Positions 29,816 through 64,000 of a stretch of DNA of 64,000 nucleotides are shown here, in pieces. The stretch lies in contig CM108484.1 of NCBI GenBank assembly GCA_048537945.1, positions 9,123,785 to 9,187,784 of the forward strand. The letters are read 5' to 3'. Made by a program: the position numbers and the translations under genes. The DNA comes from Mnemiopsis leidyi. Lineage: Eukaryota. The stretch's first letter is position 1. Each line of letters starts with the position of its first letter. A model generated the notes under the pieces. That model was not told where the DNA came from. It saw only the letters and a list, made by a program, of their open reading frames with translations, and ran no database searches.

Positions 29816-29887
29816 TTCCCACGCCGGGAATCGAACCCGGGTCTTGTGGGTGAAAGCCACAGATGCTAGCCCCTACACCACGTGGGA
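29816..29887 (-). tRNA. tRNA-Glu (anticodon TTC)
   Basis: reverse complement TCCCACGTGGTGTAGGGGCTAGCATCTGTGGCTTTCACCCACAAGACCCGGGTTCGATTCCCGGCGTGGGAA folds as a cloverleaf (7-bp acceptor, anticodon loop CTTTCAC, T-arm CCGGG-TTCGATT-CCCGG) and closely resembles canonical eukaryotic tRNA-Glu-TTC. Confidence 0.85.
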
Positions 29888-30434: not shown

Positions 30435-30507
30435 AGCCTGATACGGGACTCGAACCCGTGACCCTCAGATTAAAAGTCTGATGCTCTACCGACTGAGCTA
30501 ACCAGGC
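30435..30507 (-). tRNA. tRNA-Lys (anticodon TTT)
   Basis: reverse complement GCCTGGTTAGCTCAGTCGGTAGAGCATCAGACTTTTAATCTGAGGGTCACGGGTTCGAGTCCCGTATCAGGCT matches canonical tRNA-Lys-TTT (anticodon loop CTTTTAA). Confidence 0.85.
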
Positions 30508-37093: not shown

Positions 37094-38467
37094 TCAATCA
37101 AAATAATCTTCGATGTCGATATTAGGATCTAAAATGCTCTCTCCAAGCTGTGAAATATCAGTCTGATTAAGTATCAAATTTTCCATGACCTCCTCTAAAT
37201 CAGTTTCCCCGATAAGAAGAGCACCCTGAATTCTGTCGTTAGAAACAACAAGTTTCACGAACTCTAATCCAGGCGAAATTCTAAAATAGCACCGACAACC
37301 CTCCCATTCCTGATACCTACCCAACATGATGACCTTGTACCCAAACAGCTTCGTGGAATGTGTGAATATTTCAAAAGACATGTCTGGCTCAATGACTTCG
37401 TCATCAGAGGCAGACATACTGCACGCAGTGTAGAAACCCTGCTGCAGTGCTTGTGTCCAGAGACGCATCTGTTTCCAGTTCTCACACTCTTTCCATGGAA
37501 TACTGCAAATATCTCCTGCTGCATAAACATTTGGTGCACTGGTTCGCATTCTCTTGTCTACAATGATTCCCTGATCAGTTTCTGAGAGATTAAGTTGATC
37601 CTTGAATAAATCTGAGTTAGGAATAACGCCCGTGGCACTAACTAATACATCTGAATGAAGTGCCTGTCCATTTGTGAGTTCGATTTTTAAATTATAATCG
37701 CTGTCATCTGAGCACGTCGAAACATTTTCAATTTGACAACCATACTCAATTTCTAATTTTTTGTTAGACGATGTGCCATCTAAAGAAAATCCATTGTACC
37801 AATCAGGCCCCAAAGCAGACCCTAGAACTGGACCATTTTTCTGCTTGATCACTGTGGAGTAGATCTGACGTTTGGACACTGCCACACGTTCAGGATTGCA
37901 ATTGCTGTCATTTTCCCCCTTCATGGAATCTAACAAAAACTTGCTGGCGACACTGTCCACAAATACTGAAGTTATAGTTTCATCCTTGATAACCCAACTA
38001 ATTTGACAATGCTTGGCTGCAAACACAAATTCAGAAGCTATCCCACCATTACCAACAACGGTAACGTGTTTACAAGTTTTAAGTCTGTTCTGAAGATCCT
38101 GAACACTTTCAGTGTCTCTTATGCCAACTACATGGGGTATGTTCGGGAAAATAACATTAGGGCGAGCTCCTGTAGCAATACAAAGCTTATCGTATTGAAA
38201 TGTTTTACCATCAGCCAAGGTGACAGTTTGAAGTTGGAAGTCACATTTTGTCACAAGCCCGCAAATGAAATGATAACACTGATGATGGGGTGATGAATCA
38301 ATAACTTCAAAACTATCTATCACTTCGCCTTTCTTCTCCAAGTTTGTTACTTTTTTCACTGTTTCTGTAGCTGAAATGAGGGTTACATGTGCGGTCTGGT
38401 CAAAAATGTGAAGGTTCTCAGCAACTGTAGTCCCAGCAACACCTCCTCCTAGAACTAGGTAACGCAT
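37094..38467 (-). CDS. PYROXD1: Pyridine nucleotide-disulphide oxidoreductase domain-containing protein 1 (PYROXD1) ortholog, intronless, 457 aa
   Basis: full-length ORF; N-terminal FAD-binding GxGxxG (VLGGGVAGTTVAE), GIRDTESVQDLQ, SALGPDWYNG, YAAGDICS, MRLWTQA, LLIGETDLEEVMENLILNQ, C-terminal LDPNIDIEDYFD* all match human PYROXD1. Confidence 0.9.
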   Translation of the reverse strand: MRYLVLGGGVAGTTVAENLHIFDQTAHVTLISATETVKKVTNLEKKGEVIDSFEVIDSSPHHQCYHFICGLVTKCDFQLQTVTLADGKTFQYDKLCIATGARPNVIFPNIPHVVGIRDTESVQDLQNRLKTCKHVTVVGNGGIASEFVFAAKHCQISWVIKDETITSVFVDSVASKFLLDSMKGENDSNCNPERVAVSKRQIYSTVIKQKNGPVLGSALGPDWYNGFSLDGTSSNKKLEIEYGCQIENVSTCSDDSDYNLKIELTNGQALHSDVLVSATGVIPNSDLFKDQLNLSETDQGIIVDKRMRTSAPNVYAAGDICSIPWKECENWKQMRLWTQALQQGFYTACSMSASDDEVIEPDMSFEIFTHSTKLFGYKVIMLGRYQEWEGCRCYFRISPGLEFVKLVVSNDRIQGALLIGETDLEEVMENLILNQTDISQLGESILDPNIDIEDYFD

Positions 38468-40482: not shown

Positions 40483-41640
40483 TTAACATGGTTTGAAAGA
40501 GTTAGTCTTCAAGTTGATAACAAAAATGACAACAGCTCCAAGGCAGGAACCTAGTTGGGTACAGATTCCACAGAAGAGTAGAGCATTCTCGCCATATCCT
40601 TGTAACACACTCGCCACATTAACTTTGATGTAGGAGATGCATCCTGTCCATAAAACATTGAGGAGAATGATTAGGACGGATCCCATAGTTGTACCAACAA
40701 GCCAAGGACTTGGAGACAATGAGGCGGTATAGATGATGATTGAAGCAATGATCACACATACACTGCACAGGAAGCCAAGAATGGATGGCCTTCTGCATGC
40801 AACAAAAAAGGCAAGAAAACAACACAGTGGATTTGCAAGAAGTGCCAATTCGGTAGCTAAATGATACACTGTTGGGCCATAAGGAAGACAAGCATAAGAC
40901 AGGATGGCAGGGATAACACCATTGCCTAGGGCAGCAATAATAGCAATGACTAAGTACAGCTGAACAAATAACCATTTTGTTGCAGCAAGCTCTGTACGAT
41001 TTTCACCACAGAAAACTTCATAGACCTTTATGTTGGTTAACTTAATTTCATTTGTTTCAGCAGTAGATGAGGCATTTTCTTCGGGGGAAGGTGATTCCTC
41101 TTGCTCTACACTCTGCACCGGAGGACTGCTTGATCGGATATTAGCATACCTAGCATTCAGACTTACATCCAAGTTATTCACCAAGTAAAATGCAACTCCT
41201 GATGTAGCCATGAGCAAGGACATCACACCAAAGTACACATTTACACCAAATCTTGGCCCTTCAGTTGTAGAATTACTGGATGCATTGTAACAGGTATCAC
41301 CTCCCGTGCCTTGAGCTAAAGCTAAGAGACTAGGCATGACTCCACTCAGTCCTTCCCCGATGTAGAAAGGTATCATGTAGCCAGATGGGTATTTTGCCAT
41401 AAAGGGGAGAAAAACAACAGAAGAAGTGCAATCCAATATGGCAAAGATAAATGATAAAAATAGAAGTGGAAGGCTTGATTTTTTTGAATTCATTTCTACC
41501 TCTTTATCCCAAAATTGGGATAACAAAATTGCAGCCACAAAACCAAGTAAAAGGATGATGTAGGCTGTGTATCTTAGACTTGCCATGTCTTTTTTGTATT
41601 GTCGCATGATAGTAAATATGATTGGTCCAATGTTTGCTGC
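40483..41640 (-). CDS. SLC52A: Riboflavin transporter (SLC52/RFVT family) exon 2 (AANIGPIIFTIMRQYKK...NLKTNSFKPC*)
   Basis: FLPFMAKYP..FYIGEGLSGVMPSLLALAQG and CLPYGPTVYHLATELALLANPLCCFLA match human SLC52A ([55 protein letters not shown]); acceptor ccctcAG at 41641-41646. Confidence 0.85.
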   Translation of the reverse strand, partial: AANIGPIIFTIMRQYKKDMASLRYTAYIILLLGFVAAILLSQFWDKEVEMNSKKSSLPLLFLSFIFAILDCTSSVVFLPFMAKYPSGYMIPFYIGEGLSGVMPSLLALAQGTGGDTCYNASSNSTTEGPRFGVNVYFGVMSLLMATSGVAFYLVNNLDVSLNARYANIRSSSPPVQSVEQEESPSPEENASSTAETNEIKLTNIKVYEVFCGENRTELAATKWLFVQLYLVIAIIAALGNGVIPAILSYACLPYGPTVYHLATELALLANPLCCFLAFFVACRRPSILGFLCSVCVIIASIIIYTASLSPSPWLVGTTMGSVLIILLNVLWTGCISYIKVNVASVLQGYGENALLFCGICTQLGSCLGAVVIFVINLKTNSFKPC

Positions 41641-41876
41641 CTGAGGGTGATTAAACTTTAAAAAAAGAAATTACATATATACCGGCTTTAGAAAATTTCC
41701 CAGGACATGTCAGAAATCAACATCTTAAATAAGTGTTCATTGTATCACTTGCAAGGCTGTAAATGTGATAACTGCATTAACTGATAACTGCATTAACTGA
41801 TAAAAAATATTAATAGATATTCATAATTTTGACAAGACTAACAAACTCACAACAATTAAGATTCCATTGGACTTAC

Positions 41877-42035
41877 TTGGATTATAAGAACAAGATAAGT
41901 TGGTAAGTTCCACCCTTCAGGTAATTGAGAAGTCAACAGAGGAAGCTCTGCCCAGACTCCATTAATTGCAACCCAGCTTCCCATACCAAATAAGGTGATG
42001 AGCAGGGAAACAAAGAGATTAACTTGCATTGCCAT
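41877..42035 (-). CDS. SLC52A: Riboflavin transporter exon 1 ([53 protein letters not shown])
   Basis: matches human RFVT N-terminus [43 protein letters not shown]; donor caa|GTAAGT; 53 codons in phase with exon 2. Confidence 0.8.
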
Positions 42036-42120
42036 GTGTCAAACCTAGTGATGTAGCACTTTACAGTTTAAACAGAACTTCCCGAATAAGGAAATCATAA
42101 CTTCAAATCAAGTACTATAA

Positions 42121-45998: not shown

Positions 45999-46636
45999 TC
46001 AATCCATCACCCCTTTCAACTCATCTAGTTGATACTTCATAAGTTTTTGTTCCAGTTCTGCTATAGTTCTGTCTCTCTCCCTGACTTTCCCCCTTTCCTT
46101 CTCCAACTCCTCCTCCAACTGTCTGATCCTCTCCTCAGGGGTGACCCTCTCCGCTGCTAGTACTGGCGTAGGTGTAGGTAAGCTCTCTCCTCCCGAATCT
46201 CCACTGGACCCAGGGATAGGTTCTAGAGAGTTGACGTCAATTCGAGTGGACTTAGCTAGGGCTTCTCTCAGTCTCACCTCACTGAACGAGAACTCGGCTC
46301 TATACTCTGGAGGAGGGGAGGTTGGGGGAGTTTTTGAAGAGGTTCCAGGTGGTTGGAGTTTGCCTGAAGTGACTTCAGGGGGGTCCGCACTGGATGTGTG
46401 TGTTGGAACTGGAGCTCTTTCAGAGACTGACTGAGGGTGACTGTCTGCTGATGCGACACCGGAACTGGAACAACTGGCTGCAGATACCGACTTTGAGGAA
46501 TGAAGGTGGTGGCTGCCTGAGGAGTGGCCGCTGTCTGACGTCACTAGTTCCTGACTGTTTGCAGAGGACACCCCACTCGAGGACTGATGGTCGTAACTCC
46601 GCAGACTCATCTCGTTCCGGAACATTTTACCGCCGC
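45999..46636 (-). CDS. NEK9: terminal exon: Ser-rich low-complexity region then coiled coil (..ERIRQLEEELEKERGKVRERDRTIAELEQKLMKYQLDELKGVMD*)
   Basis: tctttCAG acceptor; 211 codons + stop; a C-terminal coiled coil fits NEK9 domain order. Confidence 0.65.
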
Positions 46637-47293
46637 CTGAAAGACACGAAACTGTGTATTGTGTAAAGAAGATAGAATGTGCATTGTGCGGTATATTTGG
46701 TATCCGAGAGATAATGTACTGTGGTGCCTTCGTAATCAAGGAAGTGATAATAATGATATGTACATCAGAACAATCTTACTTATTGCCTGAGTGCCACAGT
46801 TAAATGACCGTTTTCTCCCAACGAATGGAAATACGCAATCTGTCAACCTGGCCACATTATGATAACTGATAAAAGATCTGCCAACATAGCATAGGAGCTA
46901 GGACAGGATAAACAGACTCTGAGCAGACGCGGATTTTAAAACTTCGAGAGAACTTTTCATCGAATTTTTGCTATTATTGAAGTGTTACCCGTTCCAACTA
47001 TCAAATTTCTGTATTCCGTTGAAAGACCGTTTTTCGACCACGGAGAATATCCTGCTTATTATCTTTTTTACCGCTTTGATTGCAGTATTAGTGTACTCTT
47101 ATAAAGGGACACTTGTAAACATTTCAGACCGTTTCCAGTTGAAACATATTTCAGAAAGACTTTAAATCGACAATCGTTTACTATTATTATTGTGTAAGAT
47201 GTAAATTGTAACTTGTACAATATGTAGCTTGCACTCGACTAGAAAATAAACTTAAACTTTAGTTGTTCGAAATTCACTGAATATGTGACTTAC

Positions 47294-47429
47294 CGAAATT
47301 GGGAGTAGGCGGTGGTTTGTCGCACATTTCCATCTCATTGTGCAGCCACGTGGGTGTTTTGGCAGAGTCTAATGAGTCCTGGCGAGAAACCTGGGTTTCA
47401 GCTGCTCCAATCAACTGTGCTGATATGAC
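47294..47429 (-). CDS. NEK9: exon (VISAQLIGAAETQVSRQDSLDSAKTPTWLHNEMEMCDKPPPTPNF-)
   Basis: ctttaCAG acceptor, g|GTAAGT donor. Confidence 0.6.
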
Positions 47430-47620
47430 CTGTAAAGTTAACCATTTTGAAGAAAAATCTAGCATGCTTGTGTTCTCATCTCTCATGTATTTAACAAGAG
47501 TTTGATCAAAAATTGTTCTTAGGGTTATAATTGCAGCCCAACTTAGAGTTCGACTAGAAAGTAGAACGTAGAAATACAGAAAAGATTTCAATAAAGAAGA
47601 ACAAAGAACAGTCTCTATAC

Positions 47621-47723
47621 CTGTTCAGCTACAAGTAGAGTATACCAGCCTCTACTGGACAGTGCCGGTATGTAGTGCAGGGAGCTAAATATAGGGGTCG
47701 GCGTACAGACGCTGTTCCTTGAA
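47621..47723 (-). CDS. NEK9: exon (SSRNSVCTPTPIFSSLHYIPALSSRGWYTLLVAEQ)
   Basis: gattttCAG acceptor, GTATAG donor; the only phase-compatible open segment between flanking exons. Confidence 0.55.
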
Positions 47724-47819
47724 CTGAAAATCAGCTAGTTTAGAATTAACCTGATGTGAAATATATATGGCATTTTACACCACGTACTGGCTTAGAAAGC
47801 CTGGTAGAACTGAAAATAC

Positions 47820-47952
47820 CTGTTTCCTAGTTCGTTGTTGGTTCCGTCTCCCAGACGACCGTGGTTTCTATAGCCCCAGGAATAAACCTCGTTGTCTACC
47901 GTTGTAGCTACTGTAAACCTGTCCCCTGCTGACACAAGCGCTATTTTCTTTC
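47820..47952 (-). CDS. NEK9: RCC1-repeat exon (GKKIALVSAGDRFTVATTVDNEVYSWGYRNHGRLGDGTNNELGN-)
   Basis: cttctcacccAG acceptor, ag|GTATTT donor. Confidence 0.7.
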
Positions 47953-48087
47953 CTGGGTGAGAAGTTCTGTATTTTGAGGACCAAAGTTCAATATTTTGTG
48001 TCCTTGGCAGAACCGTTCATGATAAATAGGACAGGTGCGATCAGACGTAAACAAGGAAATAACAACATGGTTGTTGTTGAAACTCAC

Positions 48088-48232
48088 CGGCAAGTTTAGC
48101 CTTGACTATGGTAGGCTGGCTGTAAACTTTGTAGTGGCCTATACCCCGCTGTCCACACTTGTTTGAACCAAGAGTCCAGATTCTGTCGTAGGCGTCGATA
48201 ACAGCGGTGTGGTCAACACCACATGCTACTTC
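48088..48232 (-). CDS. NEK9: RCC1-repeat exon (EVACGVDHTAVIDAYDRIWTLGSNKCGQRGIGHYKVYSQPTIVKAKLA-)
   Basis: tttCAG acceptor shared with each unit of the adjacent 36-bp tandem repeat; donor g|GTGAGT. Confidence 0.7.
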
Positions 48233-48235
48233 CTG

Positions 48236-48490
48236 AAATACAGAAGGATCAACACCACATGCTACTTCCTGAAATACAGAAGGATCAACACCACATGCTA
48301 CTTCCTGAAATATAGGAGGATCAACACCACATGCTACTTCCTGAAATATAGGAGGATCAACACCACATAATACTTCCTGAAATATAGGAGGATCAACACC
48401 ACCTGCTACATCCTGAAATACAGGAGGATCAACACCACATGCTACTTCCTGAAATATAGGAGGATCAACACCACATGCTACTTCCTGATA
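48236..48490. repeat. 36-bp minisatellite x7, each unit duplicating the 3' splice site and first 22 nt of the adjacent NEK RCC1 exon (minus-strand unit caggaagtagcatgtggtgttgatccttctgtatttcag)
   Basis: direct reading; units are open in the exon frame on the minus strand (EVACGVDPSVFQ)n. Confidence 0.9.
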
Positions 48491-49874
48491 TTATACAGGA
48501 GGATTAAGAGCATGTTAGTGTTAGATGTTATTGAACATTTCATTTTTTCATTATCAAGTATGCATCTACAGCTTGCCTCGTCCAAGCTAGTGTCATCTAG
48601 CTGCATTAGATGTTATGAACAACTTGACGATTATACCATAATCATCATTGCCATACTAACGATTTCGGAGAAGCATTTCGTTTTTCTTGTTAAGCACGCC
48701 CAACTTTTAGATTCGGTTAAATCAGAATGTCGACGACGAAAGGAAACATAATTTAATGCTTCAGTCAAAAAAGGCTATATACTTATAGGCAAAAAAGTAC
48801 TTCAGAAACTTTAAATAATGTTTTTAAGATTGTGTTTGATATATAACAAGGATATGCTAGAAAAGGTTAAATACCCGTCCGAAGAGGACAATAGGCTATA
48901 ATAATGAAGAGTTTCCGACATCATGGCAAGAAAAAGTTGGGAGGAAAGTTGTTATTCTCAAAGCAATGTAAATTTGCCGAACTTGTTTCTAAAATTTAAG
49001 CAGTTGAAAGATCTTAACAGTCTGGATGAAAATTGAAATCACTACATTTCTTGTAGAGTCACCTCAGGTCACCACCACCTAGTACCAGCTAAACTTCCTT
49101 TGATACAGTTTACTCCTGGCTCAAGGAAAAAGTCTTGAAGAACTAACTTGGCCCCATTAGTGTTAATAAATGACAGTTTTGTTATCGAAGGGCACGTAAA
49201 GAGTAAAAAAATTACAGATACCTAGCTAAAGAATACATCCTAAGAAGATATTCCGTCTTAGGAAACCTTGGAACAAAGCTAGTGAAAAAAGCCAAAAGCC
49301 AACACTTAATAACAAGTACAGAATATAATCGTGTAACTTCGATCGCGGAGACTCTCCTGAAGAGCTAGTTTCTATGGACCATGACATAAAGTTAAAGTTG
49401 ACAGACCGTTCAACTAACAACTGTGATGTACCTCGACTCTGTGTTTTCATTCTGCGAAATACAGCTGCTAATTGCTAGAGGTATCACTAGAGCACATCGT
49501 TTTTCAAAAGAGGTGAAGGTCAATCTTCAGTTGGAAACATTCACGGTACCTATTTCACTAATGGGAGCGCTGTAAGGATCGGTCCGGTCGTATATTACTT
49601 TAACAGACGATAAATATTTTGGTCAGTGCTTACGTGGAAAGCACAAAACCTTTTATACTGCATATGTACTGAGAAAAAGAAAATTGAAACATACAGATTG
49701 TTATTAGCTTTAAATGTCATAGATTCAGAAACCAACAGAAAAGTTGACTGTCTTTTGAAATTTATTTAAAAAAACTGTTTTTATATGGGATCATTACTTG
49801 ATGTAGAATGTAGATATAGAATGGCCATGTTTAGAAGGCAAATTTAAGAAATTCTAATTTACGATAATACCAAC

Positions 49875-50014
49875 CCTAACTGCGACTGACGAGAGTCCAT
49901 AGACTGGTTTCAAAGTAAAAGTTTCGCCACACTTTGCTACTTTAGCCCCCTTCCTCCCGATTTTGTTAATACCCAACTTGTTATCTTGATTGTCTCCACA
50001 AGCCATCAATTTCC
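49875..50014 (-). CDS. NEK9: RCC1-repeat exon (GKLMACGDNQDNKLGINKIGRKGAKVAKCGETFTLKPVYGLSSVAVR)
   Basis: tttCAG acceptor, agg|GTTGGT donor; restores the phase between flanking exons. Confidence 0.65.
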
Positions 50015-50823
50015 CTGAAATTCAAATTAAAAATCAAAGATATTAAGGCTTGAGTATAATAATAACGTATCAGGATCTAATAACGTATCAGGATCAATAA
50101 ACGATTTTCCAATTTCAAAAAAATAGACTACCATATCAGGAATATTGGTTTTTGTCAATATCTCTTCCCTGAAGATTTTTAAAAATCGGTTGCTCCGGTG
50201 CTTCACGACACGTACATTTATGTTGCCATTGTACTCATTCTTTAATGATAGTCTAAATCTGAATAAAGCTGAATAATACTGAAAAATAGCCTTTCCTAGA
50301 TCAAAATACAAAAATTTAACCCGATATATCTAGTTGGTATAGTTATTCTCAGATACCAGGAAATTTGGTTAGCAGTATTTTCGCCAAAATTTTCTCTTTG
50401 ATCATTTTGGAGCATAGGTTGCTTGGTAACGGGTATGAAATGAGTTTGTTGAATTGTTGCCCATGTTTTGTTGAGCCGGTTTAGTATCTGATTCAGAAAT
50501 ACACTTTGGTGCGTATAAATGAAAATGTATTTTTCGCTAATATCTCTTTTTCTGATCATGAAAAGATAATTGTGCAGTGATTTGAAGCTTATTTTAAGTC
50601 ACTAAGACCTTTTTGGACCAAATTAAAATATCGAATTCCAATTTTCTCGATTCCGATTACCGAAAAATCAACTGTTAAATTGGAGTTGGATTGCCCCCAC
50701 CAATGGTAATACTTCAGCCAGATGTGTTAGAAAATGAAATGCTATGATGAACAGACTGGTTTACAAGGTTTTCTTCTTTAATTTCAGATAATTGAAAAAA
50801 GTGTAAGTTTAAACGATTCCTAC

Positions 50824-50969
50824 CCCCGGTTGTGATGACAAACGAGCAGTGTCTTCCGCAAGCAACCTTAGCAAACTTGGTACCTCGGATCTCCAACTTC
50901 TGAGGAATGTAAAGTATGTCTTCACAGTCGTTGCCAAGGCACCCGTATTCTCCATTGCCCCATCCGTAT
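50824..50969 (-). CDS. NEK9: RCC1-repeat exon (LYGWGNGEYGCLGNDCEDILYIPQKLEIRGTKFAKVACGRHCSFVITTG-)
   Basis: tgtgCAG acceptor, GTAGGA donor. Confidence 0.75.
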
Positions 50970-51319
50970 CTGCACAGTGACAAGTTCAATTGTTACGACT
51001 GAGGTTTCCTAAATTTCCAGAAGGCATTGATTACAGCATTGGCCTTCTTATGTTGTAGGTTACGTAGTGTCTCGTTTCATAGGTGAAAGACCGTACATAC
51101 AAGGTTGACAAGTAGAATTTGGATCTTATTAAAGATCAATACTTAAATACACTAATAAGTTTCTCTATCATGGATAACTTTTAAACCAGATAACGAATCT
51201 AATGTTAAGTGCCAATTGAGTAACAATTAAGTCACAATCAAGTAACAATCAAGTAACAATTAAGTAACAATTAAGTAATTACAGTTAAGAAACAGTTAAG
51301 TAACAGTTAAGTAACATAC

Positions 51320-51495
51320 AAGTCGCCGTCCAGAGTAGTAGCCATGACGTGTGCATCTCCACAAGACACACTGGATATTGCGACGCCGTTGAAGAATGGC
51401 ACTGGAGTTGGGACTAGATAGTTATCCACCTCCTCCCCAAGTCCAAGACACCCGTCGTAGTTGCTACCGAACGCTACCTGCAGTTGTTGGATAAA
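51320..51495 (-). CDS. NEK9: RCC1-repeat exon (FIQQLQVAFGSNYDGCLGLGEEVDNYLVPTPVPFFNGVAISSVSCGDAHVMATTLDGD-)
   Basis: ctcccgCAG acceptor, GTATGT donor; ends in phase 2. Confidence 0.75.
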
Positions 51496-51586
51496 CTGCG
51501 GGAGGAACTAAGTATATCAAGTAGAATATTGGTTTCAGGAAATATTACTGTCAAGTGTAACTGTTAGTCGGGAAGTAAGTACGAAC

Positions 51587-51753
51587 CAGCTGATGCTGCT
51601 CGTCATACTCGTCCTCTACGACTGCCAGAGTGAAGTCCTCCCCGGCCACCACGTCCACCACCCCACTCCCCACCAGATGTTCTACTCGTTTAGGTGACCT
51701 GTAGCTGGCTTTGTCACCGTGCCCTAGCTGTCCGTACATTTCACCGGGCTGTC
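51587..51753 (-). CDS. NEK9: RCC1-repeat exon (GQPGEMYGQLGHGDKASYRSPKRVEHLVGSGVVDVVAGEDFTLAVVEDEYDEQHQL)
   Basis: GQLGHGD RCC1 signature; ccctcAG acceptor, GTTCGT donor. Confidence 0.75.
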
Positions 51754-51940
51754 CTGAGGGTGAAATCTTGTTGTTATTATATACAAGGGAATTTAGGATT
51801 CAAAGTCATATTCTGGTCACATTTACATGATTTAGTTGACACTAAACAAATCAGTTTTAATTTCAAACGAAAGTGCTCCATTCTTCTGGAGACATTTATA
51901 ACATTCTCCAATAAATGCTATCCAAGCAGGATGTGGGTAC

Positions 51941-52082
51941 CTGATGACCAGACATAGAGCTCCTTCTCTACAGTCACTACACAGAAATGTTTTGGTGCTA
52001 CACACACTCTTACAGCTCCCAGGTCCTTCTTGAACGTAGCCAGGGTCTGAGGTGAGGTTTTGCCTCCTCCCCAAATGTACAC
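51941..52082 (-). CDS. NEK9: RCC1-repeat exon (VYIWGGGKTSPQTLATFKKDLGAVRVCVAPKHFCVVTVEKELYVWSS-)
   Basis: RCC1 consensus (vy.wG ... v.cG..h..alt..g.vy.wG); tttCAG acceptor, GTACCC donor. Confidence 0.75.
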
Positions 52083-52439
52083 CTGAAAGTTGCAGTGAGA
52101 TTTGATCCAGCTCGAGTTGTGATTAATTTGATGAACCACGAGACCATGTTTCCTTTTCGCCGCAGATCTAATGTTATTGGTTATGTGTTATGGTTGATTA
52201 CCCACAGCAACTTAACTCAGTGGCTCGAACGTAGACTGAAGTCTTCTTCACGCTACACTGTATAGAGAACGTTTTTTGGGGAGGAATCACGAATTTCCTT
52301 TGCCATTCGACAGCTGTCAACTATTGAACAATGAGAAGCCAGGTTTGATCAATTAATATCGCACATACAAGTTACGAAAACAAATTTGCGACATCTCCGT
52401 AGGAATGTCGCGCTCTATTGAGAGTGGTTTATATTGTCG

Positions 52440-52520
52440 CGGTTTTACACTCGCTCAAAGGTGAACCTTTCGTTAGAACGGAACACGGATACAGGATACT
52501 ATCTCGACAAGGTTAATACA
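52440..52520. repeat. Third (partial) copy of the dispersed repeat family (gtcgcggtttt..tcgttagaacgg..ggatac..tctcgacaag)
   Basis: motif sharing with 15628-15700 and 44580-44700. Confidence 0.5.
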
Positions 52521-53253
52521 AGGGCGAGTCTTTGGAGTTTGGGCCCCAAGCTCTTTTGGAACCATTTAACAGTTGACTCTTCGCTTATTCTAATTTCTAA
52601 CCTCCCAATAACTCATTACTCATTATGTCGAGCGATGCTAACTAATATCAGCATGATAGTGATGTTGTCTGTAATTGATGCTAGCTGCTAGCGAATAAGG
52701 CTAGGTAGTGACCAAAACAACTAACGCAAGTAACCAGACATGATCGATGCTTGAATTACTTATTTTAAACAATAACGAAGAGAGCTTCAGTTTAGAATTA
52801 GCTTATAAACAATACGCGCGCGTGGTTTATACATATATACGCGCCAAAATGTTGCACTAAATGCGTTTATTGAAGAATTGAATAATAAAATTTAAATTCG
52901 GCGCTAGCGCGTTCCATACTTGGCGACGATCTATGAACTCTATCGATTGAAGAGTGTTTTTTCGGAAAAGCGACAACCTTCTGTCATGATAATACTTGAT
53001 ACGTATACCGTAATAATGAATCATAACAATAAACAAGAGTTTTTGCCATGAGGTTGAATAACACATCAGAAATTCACACATGGAATAATCAGTGATATTG
53101 AAAAAGAAGGATATTGAAGTGTAAACAATATCGATACGCTGATGAAACAGTATATCGATTTGACACAATCATGACAACAATTCGAAAGGACTGTGCCAGG
53201 AGGCAAGCCACCAGCTGCCGGCGACTAAGCTAACAGTTAACAAGCCTACTTAC

Positions 53254-53415
53254 TTCAGAGCTGAGGTTGGTGAGAACTGGCTGTCTTCCGGGTGACAGCT
53301 GCGAAAGACCTCGGACGTAATTTTGGGGACCTAACCGCTCTTCTAGAATCTTCTCGCACCCCTTCATGTAGGGGGTGTCTAGTATATCTTGCACGGTGGG
53401 CCGATTATCTGGATC
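53254..53415 (-). CDS. NEK9: NEK kinase-end exon (DPDNRPTVQDILDTPYMKGCEKILEERLGPQNYVRGLSQLSPGRQPVLTNLSSE)
   Basis: matches NEK NPRDRPSVNSILEKGFI; donor gaa|GTAAGT. Confidence 0.75.
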
Positions 53416-53589
53416 CTGAGTTAGAGAAAGTGTGTTAGATTGATGATGAAATTTGTTCTGATGTGGTTACAATGTACATTCTTACAGGTCTATTGATATA
53501 TGCGTGAGACTGCAGCTGATTGTTTTCAGCACTCTTTTGTTTTCAATCACAAGTCTAGCTAGCTATGTATCGCCTTTTAGTGAACATCA

Positions 53590-53850: not shown

Positions 53851-54127
53851 GTTTACAGTTATGGCCAGCTAGCTAGGCTAGTGTACCCGGAAACATACCG
53901 ATCATTAGATTAGCCCGAACTGTAATTACAGTTCTGGGCTACATCTGAACTTGTAAGAAGTTACTATGACAGTTACTATAGCACATATTATTCAGAAATA
54001 TGTACTGTGTACATCACTCAACTTGTAGGAGCGGTGGTTTCTCAGAAATGCATCCTGATTGATATCATGCACAAAAAAATTTAGAGGTCGCTAACAAATT
54101 ACTTAGAACAATATATAGACGTATTAC

Positions 54128-54193
54128 CTTTTGTAACATGCTTGTCAGTATGTTTCTCAAATCTTGGCTCCATGACTCGCTGACCGGCTTGAA
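54128..54193 (-). CDS. NEK9: NEK kinase exon, subdomain X-XI (FKPVSESWSQDLRNILTSMLQK)
   Basis: matches NEK PP.S..YS.DLR.LVSQLFKR; tttCAG acceptor, GTAATA donor. Confidence 0.8.
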
Positions 54194-55610
54194 CTGAAAT
54201 GTTAAGTTGAAAATATTTATGGTCGAACATTCAGCAGTGCTGCCTACTTTAATCAACTACCAGGAAATAGAAACATTTCTCCACGAGACTCGAGTTCGTG
54301 AAATTGACGAACAACATATCCCGGACCTCAGTACTATGTTTGGTATGTTGGCGGTCGCCAAATGTAAGTCTTACATGTCAGACATTTCGAAACCTAAAAC
54401 CAGCTAGACTCATTAAACCTTCGACATGGGCATTAAAAATTCGCCTTAAAATTTGGGAACAATTTTCAAAGGCAGTCAATGTCTGTTGTATTTTCTCTGC
54501 AGTGTGCGTGTCTACTGTCTAAAGCCGTTTATTATTTATACCACTTTTCACCTTCTAGATGCACTAAACGGTTGGACCTATCATTTAGACAGATCATCAA
54601 CTTCCCCAAGTGTTGTCCGTGATTCCCGTACACAGTTCGGACTGATTGATCGGGCGGCAAATAGATTTCCTGGAGGCTTTACCAGCCTTTCTTGTACCGC
54701 ACCAACGAGATAAAACATTGCACACCATCAACTAGAAGATCCTTAATCCATGCAATTATATACAAGGATAAGATATTATGCGTTTACGTGGTCAGAAATG
54801 ACAATATAATTAACAAGGTCATTGCAAAATTACAATTCAAAATTTATTGGCAGCAATTAGACGTGATTAAAATTGCTGCTAACGAGCCGAGACATACAAA
54901 TACTCGATTGTTTGATCCTTCGTACTCCCGCGGTCGATTTGTTACTTCTTCAGAGTGTGCTATGAAGTAAAATCGCGATGAAATAGTTGTGATTAGACGG
55001 TGATATCCAACGGCGGGTTGGATAGGTATTTTCCATCCAATAGAAGAGCTGCAGTGTTGATATTGTACTGTGCGATCGACCAATCAGAGCCGAGAGTTCA
55101 ATTTGTCCTGCTTCACCAAGATCAAGATAGCTAATAAATCATTCTACATGTTCACTTTGTGTTTTTCATTTCGGAACTTTCCGAGAAGGCGTTTAGATCA
55201 GAAGCGTGAAAAGCCAGGATATTGGTTAGACGGTACTTATGGAGTTAACCCGGGTAATTTTTCCCTGGTAATTTTTCCCAAACTCTTTTTGGTCTGATTC
55301 ATCTAAGACGTGGATGGCATAATTGATAATTTCGAAGTTTTCGTAAACACTTAGGCCGACAAGTTTCCATTATATATAAAAAGTTGACGGCATTTATTAA
55401 CATTAAGTTGCATAGCTCTTCTGATATATTAAGCGTTACAGAAGTAGCCAATTTGCTTTTTTGTCCGAGTTTTGTATATATAATTTTTTCTTGTGCATAA
55501 ATCTAAGGAATCCACCTTCCCAAACATATCATGATCATAATTTATTCATTTAAATTTTTCTATTCAAAACGACTACCATCCCTCAGCCTCTCATTCTCAG
55601 ATAGAAAAAT

Positions 55611-56585
55611 ATGGTAAATCCAGCCCTGCCAGACCCGACACTCATCTTGGCAGGTATTCTTACCCAAATAACATTCGAGAAGATAGTGGTGCGGACAAAA
55701 CTTGAGAGGCAGCTATCCCTCGACAAGAAATATTTTGAGATATCCTGGAGATTAGCAATCTTCAGTAAATATCCCGGTCTAGGCTGGCTACAGATAATTT
55801 TGTTGTCCAGTGTTGTTACCATCTTTTCCGTTCTGAGGACACCAAGAAAACATAGACTGGCTAGGGGAATCTTAACTTTATTTTTAACTTTCATTTTCAA
55901 TGTCAGTGTGGGAAGTGTTGGATTTACAGAGATCTATAACGTGGACGAACATCTAGAATATCGGATAACTCTGGAGTACTTCCAATACGCGACAACACCG
56001 ATATTCGCTTCTGCAGCGGTGGTAGTTGTGGGGAACTACCTGAAGATTCCCCGAGGAAGAACCACAGTTCGATTCGACCTGCGTACAGATAGGACAGAAG
56101 AAACGTCCCTCAGATCCCTCCTGAAGACTTACTCGCCGGGATCAGCGGTTCTTCTGACGGGGGTCTTTGCTCAACTTACTTTCGAGAAGTTATTCAGCAT
56201 TCTTATCACCTCCTACCCTACAGCGCCTGATTTCTGTGCACTGCGCGGCATCGGCAGCTGGATCCAACTTCTTTCCCTCTCTACTTTCCTTGTTTTCATC
56301 GTTCTGTGTGTGCGATCTGGCCCAAACAGGTTGTCTCAGGGGACAGTTACCTTTTTCTTCTCATTTATCTTAAACTTTAGTCTCGGTCACATCGGAGAGA
56401 TGGGAACATATTGTGGTAGTCAGTACAGCTCCAGAGTAAGGGACGTTTACAGGTATGGGACAATTCCTCTGGTCGGACTAACCGCTCTTGTTTGTTTTGC
56501 TGGTTTTTTGGTGACATTCGAGAAAGGCCGGAGTTCGGGAAACCCTCAGTGCCAACTTTCCAGAAGGGACACTGTTGCTGCATAA
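55611..56585 (+). CDS. Intronless ORF, 324 aa, predicted 8-TM membrane protein built from two homologous 4-TM halves; nested in a NEK intron on the opposite strand; no recognisable family
   Basis: long stop-free ORF in otherwise AT-rich intronic DNA; eight hydrophobic segments; halves align (LILAGILTQITFEKIV.. / AVLLTGVFAQLTFEKLF..; GILTLFLTFIFNVSVGSVGFTEIY / GTVTFFFSFILNFSLGHIGEMGTY). Confidence 0.4.
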   Translation: MVNPALPDPTLILAGILTQITFEKIVVRTKLERQLSLDKKYFEISWRLAIFSKYPGLGWLQIILLSSVVTIFSVLRTPRKHRLARGILTLFLTFIFNVSVGSVGFTEIYNVDEHLEYRITLEYFQYATTPIFASAAVVVVGNYLKIPRGRTTVRFDLRTDRTEETSLRSLLKTYSPGSAVLLTGVFAQLTFEKLFSILITSYPTAPDFCALRGIGSWIQLLSLSTFLVFIVLCVRSGPNRLSQGTVTFFFSFILNFSLGHIGEMGTYCGSQYSSRVRDVYRYGTIPLVGLTALVCFAGFLVTFEKGRSSGNPQCQLSRRDTVAA

Positions 56586-58197
56586 GAAATTACCTCGTGT
56601 TACTGAGACGTTTCGACCCTCACTAAATCTTCAACAAATTACGTTATGGGCACTCTAGCGTGGTTATTTTAGTGTCTTAGCTTTTTGTCAAAGCCTCATT
56701 GAGCAGACCTGCTAGAGCCAAGTACACTAAGTGTAGCTCTATATATAGTATAGTATAGTAGTACCTGCTCAGTCACCAGTGACTGTTATTTCTGGACATT
56801 GTTGTAAATTTTTTTACAAAATTTAAAGCAAAAACATAAAGCAAACCTATCGGGACAAAATCTCTGATGACCTGAAGCTGATCGACCCTTACACATATCA
56901 ATTACTCTCTATATAAAAAGATGGTTGGAAGCTTTGACAATATAACTTTTATCATATTTCTTTTATATTCCTAAGACAGTAACTGCTAGTCAGTGAGGAT
57001 TAATAATTTGTATTTTTTAGTGCGTGAAATTTACTTTATCTGGTTTGTGATTCTAAAGAGAGGAGAGTTTGACAAATCAATATGTTTCAGATAAAAATTT
57101 CGAACTTAAATAATCAGATCAAATAAGGTCCTGAAAACCCATAACCAAACTGATTCCAACAAAATATTTCCAGATTAAGCTGTCTAAACTCTAGAACATT
57201 ATTAAATCGAGAGGATAGCAGAAAACTTACCTATTTTTACGCAATGCCGTCATGAACTTGAGCTATTTTAAAAAGATAAGGTCCGCATTTGGAAAATCAC
57301 GCGTTATCTCAGTCCCGACAAGTCAACGACCTAATACTCAGTACCAGGTTACGAACTTTTGCTTTGTTTGGGACGATTTTCCGGGAGTAAAATTTGTTTA
57401 TCGAGGTGGGAGAACCTATCACAGATACTTTACTTGTGTAGACAAAGGAAAATGAGCGTATTCTGGAACAATTAGGTATGCGGTTTATATTAGGAGATAT
57501 AGGTTGGCTTACATGAGGTTTATGGTAGAAAAAGTTTGAGATATCTCAAACTTACACCTAAATAACTATAGAGCATAGCGTGTTTACTTCCCCTAAACTG
57601 AAGATTTAGGTTCTCATGAACGGACTTACCAACAATATCAAAAAGACTGGCACCTACCTTACTTTAAGTAAAACTGCTTATCGAAAACGAATTGAGATCT
57701 TCAAGTTAAAATTAAGTTTACCTTTTACTCTGTATACAAAATGACGTAGTAAAAGCTGAAAGTTAAAACTCGCCTAGTAAAGCTACTTCACGACAAAGTA
57801 CAAGTGGAAGTACAAAACACCTCTCTTGAACGACAAAGTACAAGTGGAAGTACAAAACACCTCTCTTGTACTTGGTGGGGTTCCCAGGACAAGACAAGGT
57901 GTTACTTCTTTTAACCAACCACACACAACACTGAACACAACACTACTACACGATATCTTAACGCGACACTACACTACTACACGACATCGTAACATGGCGT
58001 GTTCTGATGTTAGACAGAACATTACCGACATGACATTAGAACTGAAATTAATATTGAAGTATAGAAAATTGTATTTGTGCACTGTGTATCTTCCACAATG
58101 TACTTTGCACACCTTATTTAGTTAAATTGTACAATATACTTTAAAATACATTTTCAATTTCACAATATTCAGTGTATGATGTATAAAAGTATCTCAC

Positions 58198-58327
58198 CTC
58201 TTTAGTAACGATACTGTAAACAAGACGAAGCTGGTTTGTGGCGTCGAAAGTCTTGCGTAGCTCCAACATCTCATATAGAACACAGCCACACGACCAAACA
58301 TCACTCTTGTAACCGTACGGTAAACCC
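58198..58327 (-). CDS. NEK9: NEK kinase exon, subdomain IX (GLPYGYKSDVWSCGCVLYEMLELRKTFDATNQLRLVYSIVTKE)
   Basis: matches NEK Y..KSDIWSLGCVLYEL...F.A; acceptor ttttgCAG, donor GTGAGA. Confidence 0.8.
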
Positions 58328-58334
58328 CTGCAAA

Positions 58335-58510
58335 AGCAATGAGATCACTTGGTTACTTGGTTACTTGGTTACTTGGTTACTTGGTTACTCGTTTACTTGG
58401 TTACTTGATAACTCGTTTACTTTGTTACTTGTTTACTTGGTTACTCGGTTACTCGGTTACTCGGTCACTCGGTTACTTGGTTACTCGGTTACTTGGTTAC
58501 TCGGTTACTT
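58335..58510. repeat. Short-period tandem repeat (ggttact[ct]g)n immediately 5' (minus sense) of the NEK kinase exon
   Basis: direct reading; ORF 58236-58553 is an artefact. Confidence 0.9.
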
Positions 58511-59107
58511 GGATCTAACCGATAATCTCGAAAACCGTGTATTGATTTTCTAGGTTCTATTTAGAAATAAATGTCCGGACCGGTTTAAATGATAAAATGG
58601 CTAATCTTCACTGCGATTTTAGTTAAATTTGATCCTTATGATATTGCCCTACTTCCACTATTAAAGAGAGTCTACAAAAGAAACAGTTTAAAATGAGAAT
58701 ATTGAAAGCACTGGCCGGAAATCTACGTCATGTATTTGAATATACGTGTATGTGCCTCTGAACTTCTTCCACAAAGCAATTTCTCACACGTCAATCCCAT
58801 TGTTGTCCAGGGTCCTTCCATTGTCGACATTTATGAGATAATACAGAGGTAGTACATCAAAAAAGGAGCAAAACAATGTGAAAGTGTGGGACCTAGAAAC
58901 GCGCTAGTATCATAACAAGACGTTTTCGACTGAGTATCTGTCTCGACAATGGAACTCCTTTCCGCAAGACGGACATTGGTCCTCATTGTCTAATTCCATT
59001 GTCCTTTGTACAAAGATACCAGCTAGCTCCATCATTCCGCTCATTTTTACTTGTGCGCACCAGATCGCCAAACGTTAGTTGACGTTAGTTGGATTTGATT
59101 TCGTAAG

Positions 59108-59259
59108 ATGGAGAAGTTGGTTTTGTTAACACTACTGGGTGTTGCTGCTGGAGAGCTGGTAAACATCGCCCCCAATGGCACTATCAGCGCTACTTCAATT
59201 GGGTGGGGTGGTGCCCCCAGCAGGGCCATAGATGGAAACACTAATGGTTATTGGGGCGG
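59108..59259 (+). CDS. FTL gene exon 1: signal peptide + domain-1 part a (MEKLVLLTLLGVAAGELVNIAPNGTISATSIGWGGAPSRAIDGNTNGYWG-)
   Basis: ATG 59108; donor gg|GTGAGT. Confidence 0.85.
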
Positions 59260-59386
59260 GTGAGTTTAAATATATTGAGAATTAAATGCTGTCGTCAGAA
59301 AATCAAAACTTTGATCTGACTGAAAAATGTAACTTTAGCTGGCATCTCTACTAAAATCCCAGACTGTAAACATTTCACGTTCTCAG

Positions 59387-59531
59387 TGGATCCTGCTACC
59401 ACTCAGCCTCGTGGCAAGGAAGCAAACTGACCCTGGCTCTGCCTGGAGAAGAGTTTGGAGCAACCTGGCCGGTTTACAACGTCAGTGTTTTCAACAGACT
59501 CGACACGTGTTGTGATCAGCGGATACAGGGC
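59387..59531 (+). CDS. FTL domain 1 part b (GSCYHSASWQGSKLTLALPGEEFGATWPVYNVSVFNRLDTCCDQRIQG)
   Basis: tctCAG acceptor, GTGAGT donor. Confidence 0.85.
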
Positions 59532-59714
59532 GTGAGTATTGAGTATAAATAGTCTCATTTGTGCGGTATACGTGGATATGTAAAATGTATCACTCGAGAT
59601 ATTATTTTGCATGTGCATATTTGAAGAAAAATTAACCGGGGAAACCGATTCCCAAACAAGAATGTCTCCCCCAACTCCTCTGCCAGCAGTAAAACTATTT
59701 TCCCCGACATTCAG

Positions 59715-63300: not shown

Positions 63301-64000
63301 AGACAAAATCCCTGATCGTGCAGGTGAAGAACGAGTTAAGAATTCTTGTTCCCGCAGGTTTGGGTGAAGTACGTGTAAATAATTCTTCTTCCCGCAGGTT
63401 TGGGTGAAGTACGTGTAAATAATTCTTGTTCCCGCAGGTTTGGGTGAAGTACGATTAAAGAATTCTTGTTCCCGCAGGTTTGGGTGAAGTACGAATAAAT
63501 AATTCTTGTTCCCGAAAGTTTGGTTGAAGTACGAATAAATAATTCTTGTTCCCGCAGGTTTGGGTGAAGTACGATTAAAGAATTCTTGTTCCCGCAGGTT
63601 TGGGTGAAGTACGAATAAATAATTCTTGTTCCCGCAGGTTTGGGTGAAGTACGAATAAATAATTCTTGTTCCCGCAGGTTTGGGTGAAGTACGATTAAAG
63701 AATTCTTGTTCCCGCAGGTTTGGGTGAAGTACGAATAAATAATTCTTGTTCCCGCAGGTTTGGGTGAAGTACGAATAAATAATTCTTGCTCCCGCAGGTT
63801 TGGGTGAAGTACGAGTAAATAATTCTTGTTCCCGCAGGTTTGGGTGAAGTACGAGTAAATAATTCTTGTTCCAGCAGGTTTGGGTGAAGAACGAGTTAAG
63901 AATTCTTGTTTCCGCAGGTTTGGGTGAAGTACGAGAAAATAATTCTTGTTCCAGCAGGTTTGGGTGAAGTACGAGTAAATAATTCTTGTTCCCGCAGTTT
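63301..64000. repeat. 40-bp minisatellite x~17 (gtttgggtgaagtacg[at][ag]taaataattcttgttcccgcag); each unit is a 3' splice site plus an exon start resembling the first 16 nt of an FTL part-c exon
   Basis: compare cag|gtttgggtgaagtac with real part-c exon starts cag|gtagaggtgtggcta, cag|gcacaggtgtttgtt, cag|gcgatggtttacgct; units hit an in-frame TAA after 6 codons. Confidence 0.85.

What the first reader, a model, noticed from the sequence alone, without database searches (positions are those of the whole stretch)
55611..56585. Intronless 324-aa ORF for a novel internally duplicated 8-TM protein nested in a NEK intron
A 975-bp stop-free ORF on the strand opposite to NEK is unexpected in AT-rich intronic DNA. 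It is predicted to encode eight hydrophobic helices arranged as two homologous 4-TM halves (MARVEL-like topology). The repeated (L/V)TFEK(I/L/G) motif follows TM1, TM5 and TM8. No known family was recognised by eye.
Basis: partly seen in the sequence, partly recalled or inferred. Interest (0 to 1): 0.55.

Follow-up and report, generated by a model that had tools for sequence, protein, structure and literature searches.

The report
Conserved ctenophore orphan 8-TM membrane gene
The ORF is a real, strongly conserved comb-jelly (Mnemiopsis leidyi) gene inside an intron of a NEK kinase gene; it encodes an eight-helix membrane protein, built from a duplicated four-helix unit, from an uncharacterised family whose only identifiable members are ctenophore, and whose function is unknown.

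Summary
Window 55611-56585 (+) is an uninterrupted 324-codon ORF in Mnemiopsis leidyi DNA. It lies antisense inside the intron that splits the kinase domain of a NEK9-like gene.

It is a real gene:
- Full-length uninterrupted orthologs (86%, 61%, 61% identity) sit on three other contigs. The same nesting is seen in the two contigs long enough to show it.
- dN/dS is 0.05-0.16.
- Mismatches by codon position are 29/26/121.
- There are no indels in the ORF, against 58 gap runs in the surrounding intron.
- Codon usage is coding-like.

The 4+4 internal duplication is real (E=2e-13; family profiles E=1e-31). A confident AlphaFold2 model (pLDDT 83.5) has eight long helices.

The protein belongs to an undescribed family of 37 clusters. 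The only named relative is a Mnemiopsis hypothetical protein. Paralogs are intronless, often in tandem arrays, and many carry PPxY-rich C-tails.

The inferred topology is N-in/C-in, with one outer-loop disulfide per unit. The function, probably a non-enzymatic membrane organiser, is inferred only.

Intron nesting is routine in ctenophores. Expression could not be tested. Interest is moderate to low.

The parts
55611..56585 (+). Complete uninterrupted CDS (324 aa plus TAA) of the 8-TM protein
   Evidence: Orthologs at 86/61/61% identity. dN/dS 0.05-0.16. No indels against L001. Mismatch phase 29/26/121. Codon log-likelihood +0.136 bits/codon against -0.31 +/- 0.10 for intronic pieces.
55611..56090 (+). 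First 4-TM unit (aa 1-160): TM1 9-27, TM2 57-75, TM3 79-100, TM4 117-144. The family's loop cysteines at positions 52 and 110 are replaced here by S and N.
56091..56582 (+). Second 4-TM unit plus short tail (aa 161-324): TM5 178-201, TM6 214-234, TM7 240-258, TM8 274-303. Loop cysteines C209 and C268 are retained. Loop 5-6 (SYPTAPDFCALRG) is 92% invariant among orthologs.
55587..55600 (+). Pyrimidine tract plus CAG ('cctctcattctcag') 10 nt upstream of the ATG. Candidate 3' splice or trans-splice acceptor (inferred).
   Evidence: A Y-tract plus TCAGAT is kept 6-15 nt upstream of the ATG in all four orthologs, while the neighbouring sequence is not conserved. [quoted passage not shown]
55448..55483 (+). 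CCAAT (55448-55452) and TATATATAA (55475-55483) motifs about 130-160 nt upstream of the ATG. Candidate core promoter (read by eye, inferred).
   Evidence: Sequence. Partly kept in L001 (GCCGATTTGC ... ATATTAATTAA). Not tested.
54300..55450 (.). Three conserved non-coding blocks upstream of the ORF (about 54300-54550, 54750-55050, 55250-55450), 76-92% identical to L001. Candidate regulatory or 5'UTR sequence.
   Evidence: 50-bp identity profile, no codon periodicity in mismatches (83/89/83), and indels present. The 3' flank is only 39-59% identical.
58144..58344 (-). Host NEK9-like gene: kinase exon (subdomains IX-X, GLPYGYKSDVWSCGCVLYEM...) bounding the hosting intron on its 5' side. Splice sites not mapped.
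   Evidence: 100% aa identity in L001 at 12581-12450 (-).
54123..54199 (-). Host NEK9-like gene: small kinase exon (FKPVSESWSQDLRNILTSMLQK) bounding the hosting intron on its 3' side
   Evidence: 100% aa identity in L001 and in L003, on the opposite strand upstream of the family gene.
46002..53466 (-). Rest of the host gene downstream: end of the kinase domain (53233-53466), RCC1-repeat exons (about 47795-52187), and a Ser/Pro-rich plus coiled-coil C-terminal exon (46002-46775)
   Evidence: RCC1 E=2e-36

Best explanation
This is a real, selectively maintained, single-copy protein-coding gene of the ctenophore Mnemiopsis leidyi. Its CDS is uninterrupted. It lies antisense inside the intron that splits the kinase domain of a NEK9-like gene, and it has kept that position in at least three ctenophore species.

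It encodes an all-helical integral membrane protein of eight transmembrane helices, formed by an ancient tandem duplication of a four-helix unit. The unit signature is P-x4-L-[AL]-G in TM1/5, C-x3-G-x2-W...S entering TM2/6, F-x2-S-F-x-L-N in TM3/7, and G...C in loops 3-4 and 7-8.

Inferred topology: N-terminus, central linker and C-terminus face the cytosol. Four loops face outward or into the lumen. Each unit is ancestrally stapled by one disulfide between its two outer loops. The first-unit pair has been lost in the Mnemiopsis lineage.

Most likely function (inferred, not shown): a non-enzymatic tetraspan-type membrane organiser or partner-binding protein that acts through its conserved outer face and helix core. 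In many paralogs, turnover would be controlled through cytosolic PPxY tails that recruit Nedd4-type ubiquitin ligases. This member lacks such a tail.

It belongs to an uncharacterised multigene family whose only identifiable members are ctenophore and which has no detectable relationship to any described protein family.
For: Source organism:
- The neighbouring PYROXD1 ORF is 100% identical to M. leidyi ACHWQZ_G011758.

The gene is real:
- Four full-length uninterrupted orthologs exist.
- dN/dS is 0.095 against L001 at dS 0.83, and 0.05-0.16 for the other pairs.
- There are no gap runs in the ORF, against 58 mostly non-triplet gap runs elsewhere in the intron. Conservation stops at the stop codon.
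- Mismatch phase is 29/26/121.
- Codon usage matches neighbouring genes.
- A 1-aa variant is already an active UniParc protein.

Nesting is conserved:
- NEK exons are collinear in L001, and the small kinase exon sits beside the gene in L003.

Architecture:
- Hydropathy shows a 4+4 pattern.
- The AlphaFold2 model has pLDDT 83.5, pTM 0.83 and eight long helices.
- The duplication is supported at E=2e-13 and, between family profiles, E=1e-31.

Topology:
- K+R density is highest in the short 2-3 and 6-7 loops and the linker.
- Cysteines at positions 52/110 and 209/268 are present in 28-31 of 32 members. Positions 52 and 110 are both lost in the two closest orthologs, as expected for a disulfide pair.
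- PPxY motifs, which cytosolic WW domains bind, occur in 10 of 32 C-tails.

Outer face is constrained:
- Predicted outer loops are 51% invariant and TM helices 53%, against 23% for cytosolic segments (p=5e-4).

Family:
- 37 clusters at E<=1e-3. The only named one is a M. leidyi hypothetical protein.
- At least four diverged members occur in one genome at equal coverage.
- Paralogs form tandem arrays.

No known family:
-.
Against: - No expression data could be consulted, so transcription and translation are inferred from selection alone.
- The current NCBI M. leidyi annotation apparently does not include this gene. Only a UniParc entry matched.
- Topology rests on weak statistics. In this protein, loop 1-2 is itself rich in K/R (7 of 35).
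- No dedicated TM or topology predictor was available.
- The disulfide inference is indirect.
- The functional class is argued by analogy only. Nothing excludes a channel, transporter or receptor role. Conserved polar residues inside helices (Q19/Q188, N97/N255, E23-K24, E192-K193) would also suit one of those roles.
- The 'identifiable members are ctenophore' limit rests on single-sequence phmmer plus one weak word-indexed profile search. Most relatives are unnamed metagenome contigs.
- The AlphaFold database could not be searched.
Confidence: 0.5

Rival explanations
1. The protein is a pore-forming or transport subunit. Each 4-TM unit would behave like a subunit of a large-pore or tetraspan channel (innexin, pannexin or CALHM style, with disulfides between the outer loops). 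The tandem protein would then be a covalently linked dimer that oligomerises into a channel, or the eight helices would form a small solute pathway lined by the conserved Q, N, E and K residues.
For: - One conserved Cys sits in each outer loop of each unit.
- Polar or charged residues inside helices are invariant in orthologs: Q19, E23, K24, Q188, E192, K193, and N97/N255.
- TM helices 1, 4 and 5 are the most conserved parts.
Against: - Foldseek TM-scores are <=0.30.
- No Pfam channel or transporter family is hit by any of the 32 members.
- The E-K pair is not conserved in paralogs.
- No oligomer modelling was possible.
Confidence: 0.2
2. The family is a lineage-specific surface receptor or recognition family (chemosensory or self/non-self). 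This gene would be its conserved single-copy member, for example a co-receptor or chaperone-like subunit.
For: - Paralogs are intronless, highly diverged (20-30% identity) and arranged in tandem arrays. There are at least four members in one genome. This is the genomic signature typical of expanding receptor families (general knowledge).
- The outer loops are under strong constraint in the ortholog group.
- PPxY tails would allow ligand-dependent down-regulation.
Against: - The outer loops are short (12-29 aa) and carry no recognisable ligand-binding domain.
- No similarity to any receptor family was found.
- No expression data tie it to sensory cells.
- This is purely an argument from genomic pattern.
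Confidence: 0.12
3. The ORF is not a functional host gene. It would be a chance open frame, a decaying retrocopy, or a transposon- or virus-derived ORF that landed in the NEK intron.
For: - It is intronless, inside an intron, and has no known domain.
- Many nested genes in Hormiphora are flanked by transposable elements (PMC8527503).
- It appears to be absent from the newest NCBI annotation.
Against: - It keeps the same position and orientation between the same NEK exons in species whose proteins are only 61% identical.
- dN/dS is about 0.1 with saturated dS.
- It has no indels and shows third-position bias.
- There is only one copy in the window.
- It has no viral structural match and no transposase or RT domain.
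- Shuffled sequence never reaches 324 codons.
Confidence: 0.02

Closest known systems
MARVEL-domain proteins, especially MYADM (two MARVEL domains, eight TM helices)
   Same: Tandem arrangement of two four-helix units. The predicted topology has both termini and the inter-unit linker in the cytosol. There is no enzymatic domain. A membrane-organiser role is plausible.
Innexin / pannexin / CALHM large-pore channel subunits
   Same: Four TM helices per unit, cytosolic termini, and conserved cysteines in both outer loops that could link them.
LAPTM4/5 and other PY-motif membrane adaptors of Nedd4-family ligases
   Same: Multi-pass proteins with Pro-rich cytosolic C-tails carrying PPxY motifs. This is seen in 10 of 32 paralogs.
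   Different: The window protein and its orthologs have no PPxY tail. There is no sequence match to the LAPTM (Mtp) family. The helix number differs.
Nested intronic genes of ctenophores (Hormiphora californensis annotation, PMC8527503)
   Same: A short gene lying wholly within one intron of a host gene, here antisense. This fits the 2,357 nested genes in 1,654 hosts reported for that species, and a possible trans-splice acceptor fits the reported leader usage.
   Different: Nothing unusual. The nesting is evolutionarily stable across species, which that paper did not assess for this locus.

Membership tests
MARVEL domain (Pfam PF01284), including double-MARVEL MYADM | Significant match to the MARVEL profile | tested here: not met
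   No hit at E<=10 for the whole protein or either half, and none at E<=1 in the 32 family members. The MAL control scores E=2e-22. hhalign of the family profile against MAL gives 0.4% probability.
MARVEL domain (Pfam PF01284), including double-MARVEL MYADM | Four-helix M-shaped unit with cytosolic N- and C-termini | tested here: inconclusive
   The helix count per unit is met. Orientation is inferred only from K+R density, Cys loops and PPxY tails. No experimental or dedicated topology predictor was available.
MARVEL domain (Pfam PF01284), including double-MARVEL MYADM | Structural similarity to solved MARVEL proteins | tested here: not met
Claudin / PMP22 / EMP superfamily | Profile match, and a first outer loop with the W-GLW-C-C motif forming a beta-sheet | tested here: not met
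   No Pfam hit. The model is all-helical with no strands. There is a single Cys per loop.
Innexin / pannexin / CALHM large-pore channels | Profile or fold match, and two or more conserved Cys in each outer loop | tested here: not met
MS4A / CD20 | Match to PF04103 | tested here: not met
   One of 32 members matches at E=0.49, which is noise.
Nested intronic gene (as defined in PMC8527503) | [quoted passage not shown] | tested here: met
   The CDS lies between kinase exons at about 58144-58344 and 54123-54199, which join into a continuous Pkinase match. The same arrangement is seen in L001 and L003. Transcript ends are unknown.
Undescribed ctenophore tandem 4+4-TM family (defined here) | Two homologous 4-TM units with the signature L-[AL]-G (TM1/5), C-x3-G-x2-W...S (TM2/6), F-x2-S-F-x-L-N (TM3/7), and G...C in loops 3-4 and 7-8 | tested here: met
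   phmmer finds 37 clusters. See also alignment A2 and the column statistics and the half-against-half comparison at E=1e-31. This member lacks Cys52, Cys110 and Cys186.
Undescribed ctenophore tandem 4+4-TM family (defined here) | Restricted to Ctenophora | tested here: inconclusive
   The only named members are from M. leidyi. L001 is syntenic with Mnemiopsis. The other relatives are unnamed marine metagenome contigs. No profile search of named proteomes was possible.

The most novel reading that the evidence does not exclude
The gene is the slow-evolving, single-copy founding member of a ctenophore-only family with a previously unseen tandem-tetraspan fold. The family would perform a membrane function that other animals cover with unrelated tetraspan proteins, such as a cell-cell contact or junction component or a new type of channel. 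Its conserved outer loops would be the interaction surface, and the PPxY-tailed paralogs would be its regulated, diversified relatives.
Probability: 0.12. Interest if true: 0.6.

Novelty: new variant of a known kind. Interest (0 to 1): 0.33.

Why it matters
Ctenophores are one of the two candidate sister groups of all other animals, and a large share of their genes have no recognisable relatives. This locus gives a clean example of such a gene that is clearly functional. It is under strong purifying selection and its position is fixed across species. It also defines a multigene family with a simple repeated signature, a confident structural model and a testable topology. The family is a candidate for lineage-specific membrane biology: trafficking, cell contact or conductance. 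It should be added to annotations that currently miss it. The nesting itself and the lack of annotation are ordinary for this phylum. Without expression or functional data, the finding is a useful annotation and family definition rather than a surprise.

Tried and rejected
- Chance ORF: rejected by shuffles, selection, indel pattern and codon usage.
- Transposon or viral ORF: no viral fold match, no TE domain, one copy in the window, and stable synteny.
- MARVEL homology: tested with a positive control and not met.
- Pfam on all 32 members: only scattered noise, for example ETR1_N in one member and CD20 at E=0.49.
- PDB sequence profile search: no hits at E<=10.
- Foldseek-PDB: nothing at E<=1e-3.
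- Foldseek against afdb50: the library was unavailable.
- Profile search with the word-indexed protein database: only six hits, one of them new, so it did not extend the family.
- Source names for 20 distant relatives: only one carried a name.
- Exact look-up of the window protein: not in the collection, so no contig or transcript evidence was obtained.
- Conserved upstream region: tested as a possible extra coding exon and rejected, because mismatches show no periodicity and indels are present.
- Conserved 844-bp block at 58710-59544: also non-coding.
- Rfam: only two tRNAs, far from the locus.
- Literature searches for a described ctenophore tetraspan or orphan TM family: nothing relevant found.

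Full report
**1. Observation**

An in-frame TAG sits three codons upstream of the ATG. In 200 block shuffles of the window the longest stop-free run was 234 codons.

Hydropathy shows eight peaks in a 4+4 pattern. Five are strong and three are weaker, for TM1, TM4 and TM7. The two halves align at 25% identity over 148 residues, E=2e-13.

**2. Source and setting**

The neighbouring intronless ORF at 37094-38467 (-) is a PYROXD1 homolog. It is 100% identical to Mnemiopsis leidyi protein ACHWQZ_G011758, so the window is ctenophore DNA.

On the minus strand, three stop-free pieces flank the ORF: about 58144-58344 (GLPYGYKSDVWSCGCVLYEM...), 54123-54199 (FKPVSESWSQDLRNILTSMLQK) and 53233-53466 (...DPDNRPTVQDILDTPYM). 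Joined together they give a single continuous match to Pkinase positions 173-263 of 263 (E=1e-15). The pieces further downstream score RCC1 at E=2e-36, and the last exon (46002-46775) is a Ser/Pro-rich, coiled-coil-like tail.

The host is therefore a NEK8/9-type gene, with NEK9-like architecture. The ORF lies antisense in the roughly 4-kb intron (about 54200-58180) that splits its kinase domain.

**3. Is it a gene?**

A search of 5.8 billion proteins returned four full-length matches:
- a 1-aa variant that is an active UniParc entry, UPI0004EAAE0C;
- three uninterrupted ORFs at 86%, 61% and 61% identity on independent metagenome contigs L001, L002 and L003.

Selection and substitution pattern:
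- Nei-Gojobori dN/dS is 0.095 against L001 (dS 0.83, dN 0.079) and 0.05-0.16 for all other pairs, with dS saturated.
- In a global alignment of the whole intron with L001, the ORF has no gap run. The rest of the intron has 58, mostly not multiples of three.
- Identity is 0.74-0.89 in the ORF and falls to 0.39-0.59 right after the stop codon.
- Mismatches fall 29/26/121 by codon position.
- A codon-usage log-likelihood trained on other coding ORFs of the window gives +0.136 bits per codon in the ORF frame. All other frames are negative, and random intronic pieces give -0.31 +/- 0.10, maximum -0.009.

The third, expression, could not be tested.

**4. Synteny**

L001 is collinear with the window across the NEK exons, and its 590-kb contig also carries the 89% PYROXD1 ortholog. 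Both kinase exons (100% aa identity) flank the gene on the opposite strand. In L003, the 61% species, the small kinase exon (100% aa identity) lies 1.3 kb upstream of the gene on the opposite strand. L002 is too short to tell.

The nesting is therefore old and stable. It is also unremarkable for the phylum. The Hormiphora californensis annotation reports 2,357 nested intronic genes in 1,654 hosts, about 12% of exonic bases, and frequent trans-spliced leaders (PMC8527503).

**5. Gene boundaries**

All four orthologs keep a pyrimidine tract followed by TCAGAT 6-15 nt upstream of the ATG, in otherwise unconserved sequence. This looks like a 3' splice or trans-splice acceptor, so 'intronless' is demonstrated only for the CDS.

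CCAAT and TATA-like motifs lie at 55448-55483 (read by eye).

Three upstream blocks (54300-54550, 54750-55050, 55250-55450) are 76-92% identical to L001. They show no codon periodicity (83/89/83) and contain indels, so they are conserved non-coding sequence, possibly regulatory.

**6. The protein**

AlphaFold2 run on a 32-sequence family alignment gives pLDDT 83.5 and pTM 0.83. The fold is all-helical, with eight long helices at 9-27, 57-75, 79-100, 117-144, 178-201, 214-234, 240-258 and 274-308, plus short loop helices.

At the family level, the N-half and C-half profiles match with 99.9% probability (E=1e-31, 129 columns). The duplication therefore predates the family's radiation.

The repeated signature is L-[AL]-G in TM1/5, C-x3-G-x2-W...S entering TM2/6, F-x2-S-F-x-L-N in TM3/7, and G...C in loops 3-4 and 7-8.

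The third copy is absent in the 61% orthologs, and the motif is not conserved in paralogs, where only the preceding Q is widely kept.

**7. Topology (inferred)**

- K+R density is highest in the short 2-3 and 6-7 loops, the central linker and the C-terminus.
- Cysteines at positions 52 and 110 (loops 1-2 and 3-4) occur in 29-30 of 32 members. Both are replaced in the Mnemiopsis protein and its 86% ortholog, the pattern expected of a disulfide pair. The equivalent C209 and C268 are retained.
- Ten of 32 members carry PPxY motifs in Pro-rich C-tails. Cytosolic WW domains of Nedd4-type ligases bind such motifs (established knowledge).

Together these point to N-in/C-in, with four outward or luminal loops. 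Among the four orthologs, the predicted outer loops are 51% invariant and the TM helices 53%, against 23% for the cytosolic segments (Fisher p=5e-4). Loop 5-6 is 92% invariant, and the C-tail has no invariant positions.

**8. The family**

An exhaustive phmmer scan of 1.84 billion representatives found 37 clusters at E<=1e-3, nine of them at E<=1e-10. After the orthologs, identity drops to <=30%.

Of the 20 clusters checked, only one carried a name: KAL5247709.1, a hypothetical protein of M. leidyi. Its N-terminal extension looks like a fused gene model, which is my reading.

Paralogs P0015, P0025 and P0033 lie in the same assembly as ortholog P0002 at matching coverage (144.7x, 143.6x, 138.5x against 137.2x). 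One ctenophore genome therefore holds at least four diverged members. Paralogs are uninterrupted ORFs and occur in tandem arrays: three copies in L010 and two in L007. The window holds a single copy.

**9. Comparison with known families**

Nothing matches:
- Pfam gives no hit for the protein, its halves, or consistently for the 32 members.
- The family profile finds no PDB sequence at E<=10.
- Foldseek against the PDB and the viral library gives no E<=1e-3, with TM-scores <=0.30.
- MARVEL was tested directly. MAL scores PF01284 at E=2e-22, the target does not score it at all, and hhalign gives 0.4% probability.

The resemblance to MYADM-type double-MARVEL proteins is therefore one of architecture and probable topology, not membership. 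The AlphaFold database library was unavailable.

**10. Interpretation and scores**

| Claim | My estimate |
|---|---|
| Real, constrained gene | about 0.97 |
| Tandem 4+4 helical membrane architecture | about 0.85 |
| N-in/C-in topology with disulfides between the outer loops | about 0.6 |
| Non-enzymatic tetraspan-type organiser or partner-binding protein | about 0.35 |

The functional class is an argument by analogy. The channel/transporter rival (0.2) and the receptor-family rival (0.12) remain open. The spurious or TE-derived ORF reading is effectively excluded (0.02).

The gene is an uncharacterised family member in a phylum rich in orphan genes and nested genes. A specialist would find it useful but not surprising, so interest is 0.33. 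In novelty terms it is a new variant of a known kind: a tandem tetraspan-like membrane protein unrelated in sequence to the known ones.

Noticed in passing
window 58710-59544: An 853-bp block in the next NEK intron is 81% identical to L001. It shows no codon periodicity (42/58/59), has non-triplet gaps, and has no shared long ORF. It is a long conserved non-coding element of unknown role (enhancer or non-coding RNA?).
   Followed up: partly
window 54300-55450: Three conserved non-coding blocks upstream of the 8-TM gene are 76-92% identical to L001, while the 3' flank is only 39-59% identical. They are not detectable in the 61% species.
   Followed up: partly
window 48213-48488: A 36-bp tandem repeat (7.7 copies, 95% matches) reads in frame, on the minus strand, as repeated '...PPIFQEVACGVD...' directly joined to an RCC1-repeat exon of the NEK gene (ACGVDHTAVIDAYDRIWTLGSNKCGQRG). 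It may be a minisatellite copied from, or extending, the exon's 5' edge. In L001 only 48077-48236 aligns.
   Followed up: no
window 37094-38467 (-) and 40483-41607 (-), plus 41859-42038 (-): There are two more long single-exon ORFs. One is PYROXD1, 100% identical to M. leidyi ACHWQZ_G011758. The other is an SLC52 riboflavin transporter (Pfam E=2.5e-99, starting at profile position 67). Its N-terminus appears to lie in a separate upstream exon at about 41859-42038.
   Followed up: partly
window 6982-11837 (+): Several exons read by eye as clathrin heavy chain repeats. This was not tested with a family scan.
   Followed up: no
window 29816-29887 and 30435-30507 (-): Two tRNA genes (Rfam RF00005, 59 and 74 bits) lie in the gene-poor middle of the window.
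   Followed up: no
window 1267-2351, 27814-28843, 63323-63997: Three large minisatellites: 31 bp x 35, 62 bp x 16.6 and 40 bp x 16.9 copies. The first and third produce long spurious ORFs (the first in all three minus-strand frames), which is a caution for ORF-based scans of this genome.
   Followed up: partly
P0028 (KAL5247709.1, M. leidyi), residues 1-240: The only NCBI-named family member has a 240-residue N-terminal extension unrelated to the family. It is possibly a fused gene model with an upstream, retroelement-like ORF.
   Followed up: no
L010 3770-9956; L007 6712-11017: Tandem arrays of two or three intronless family paralogs on the same strand, about 1-2 kb apart, in ctenophore-like metagenome contigs.
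   Followed up: partly
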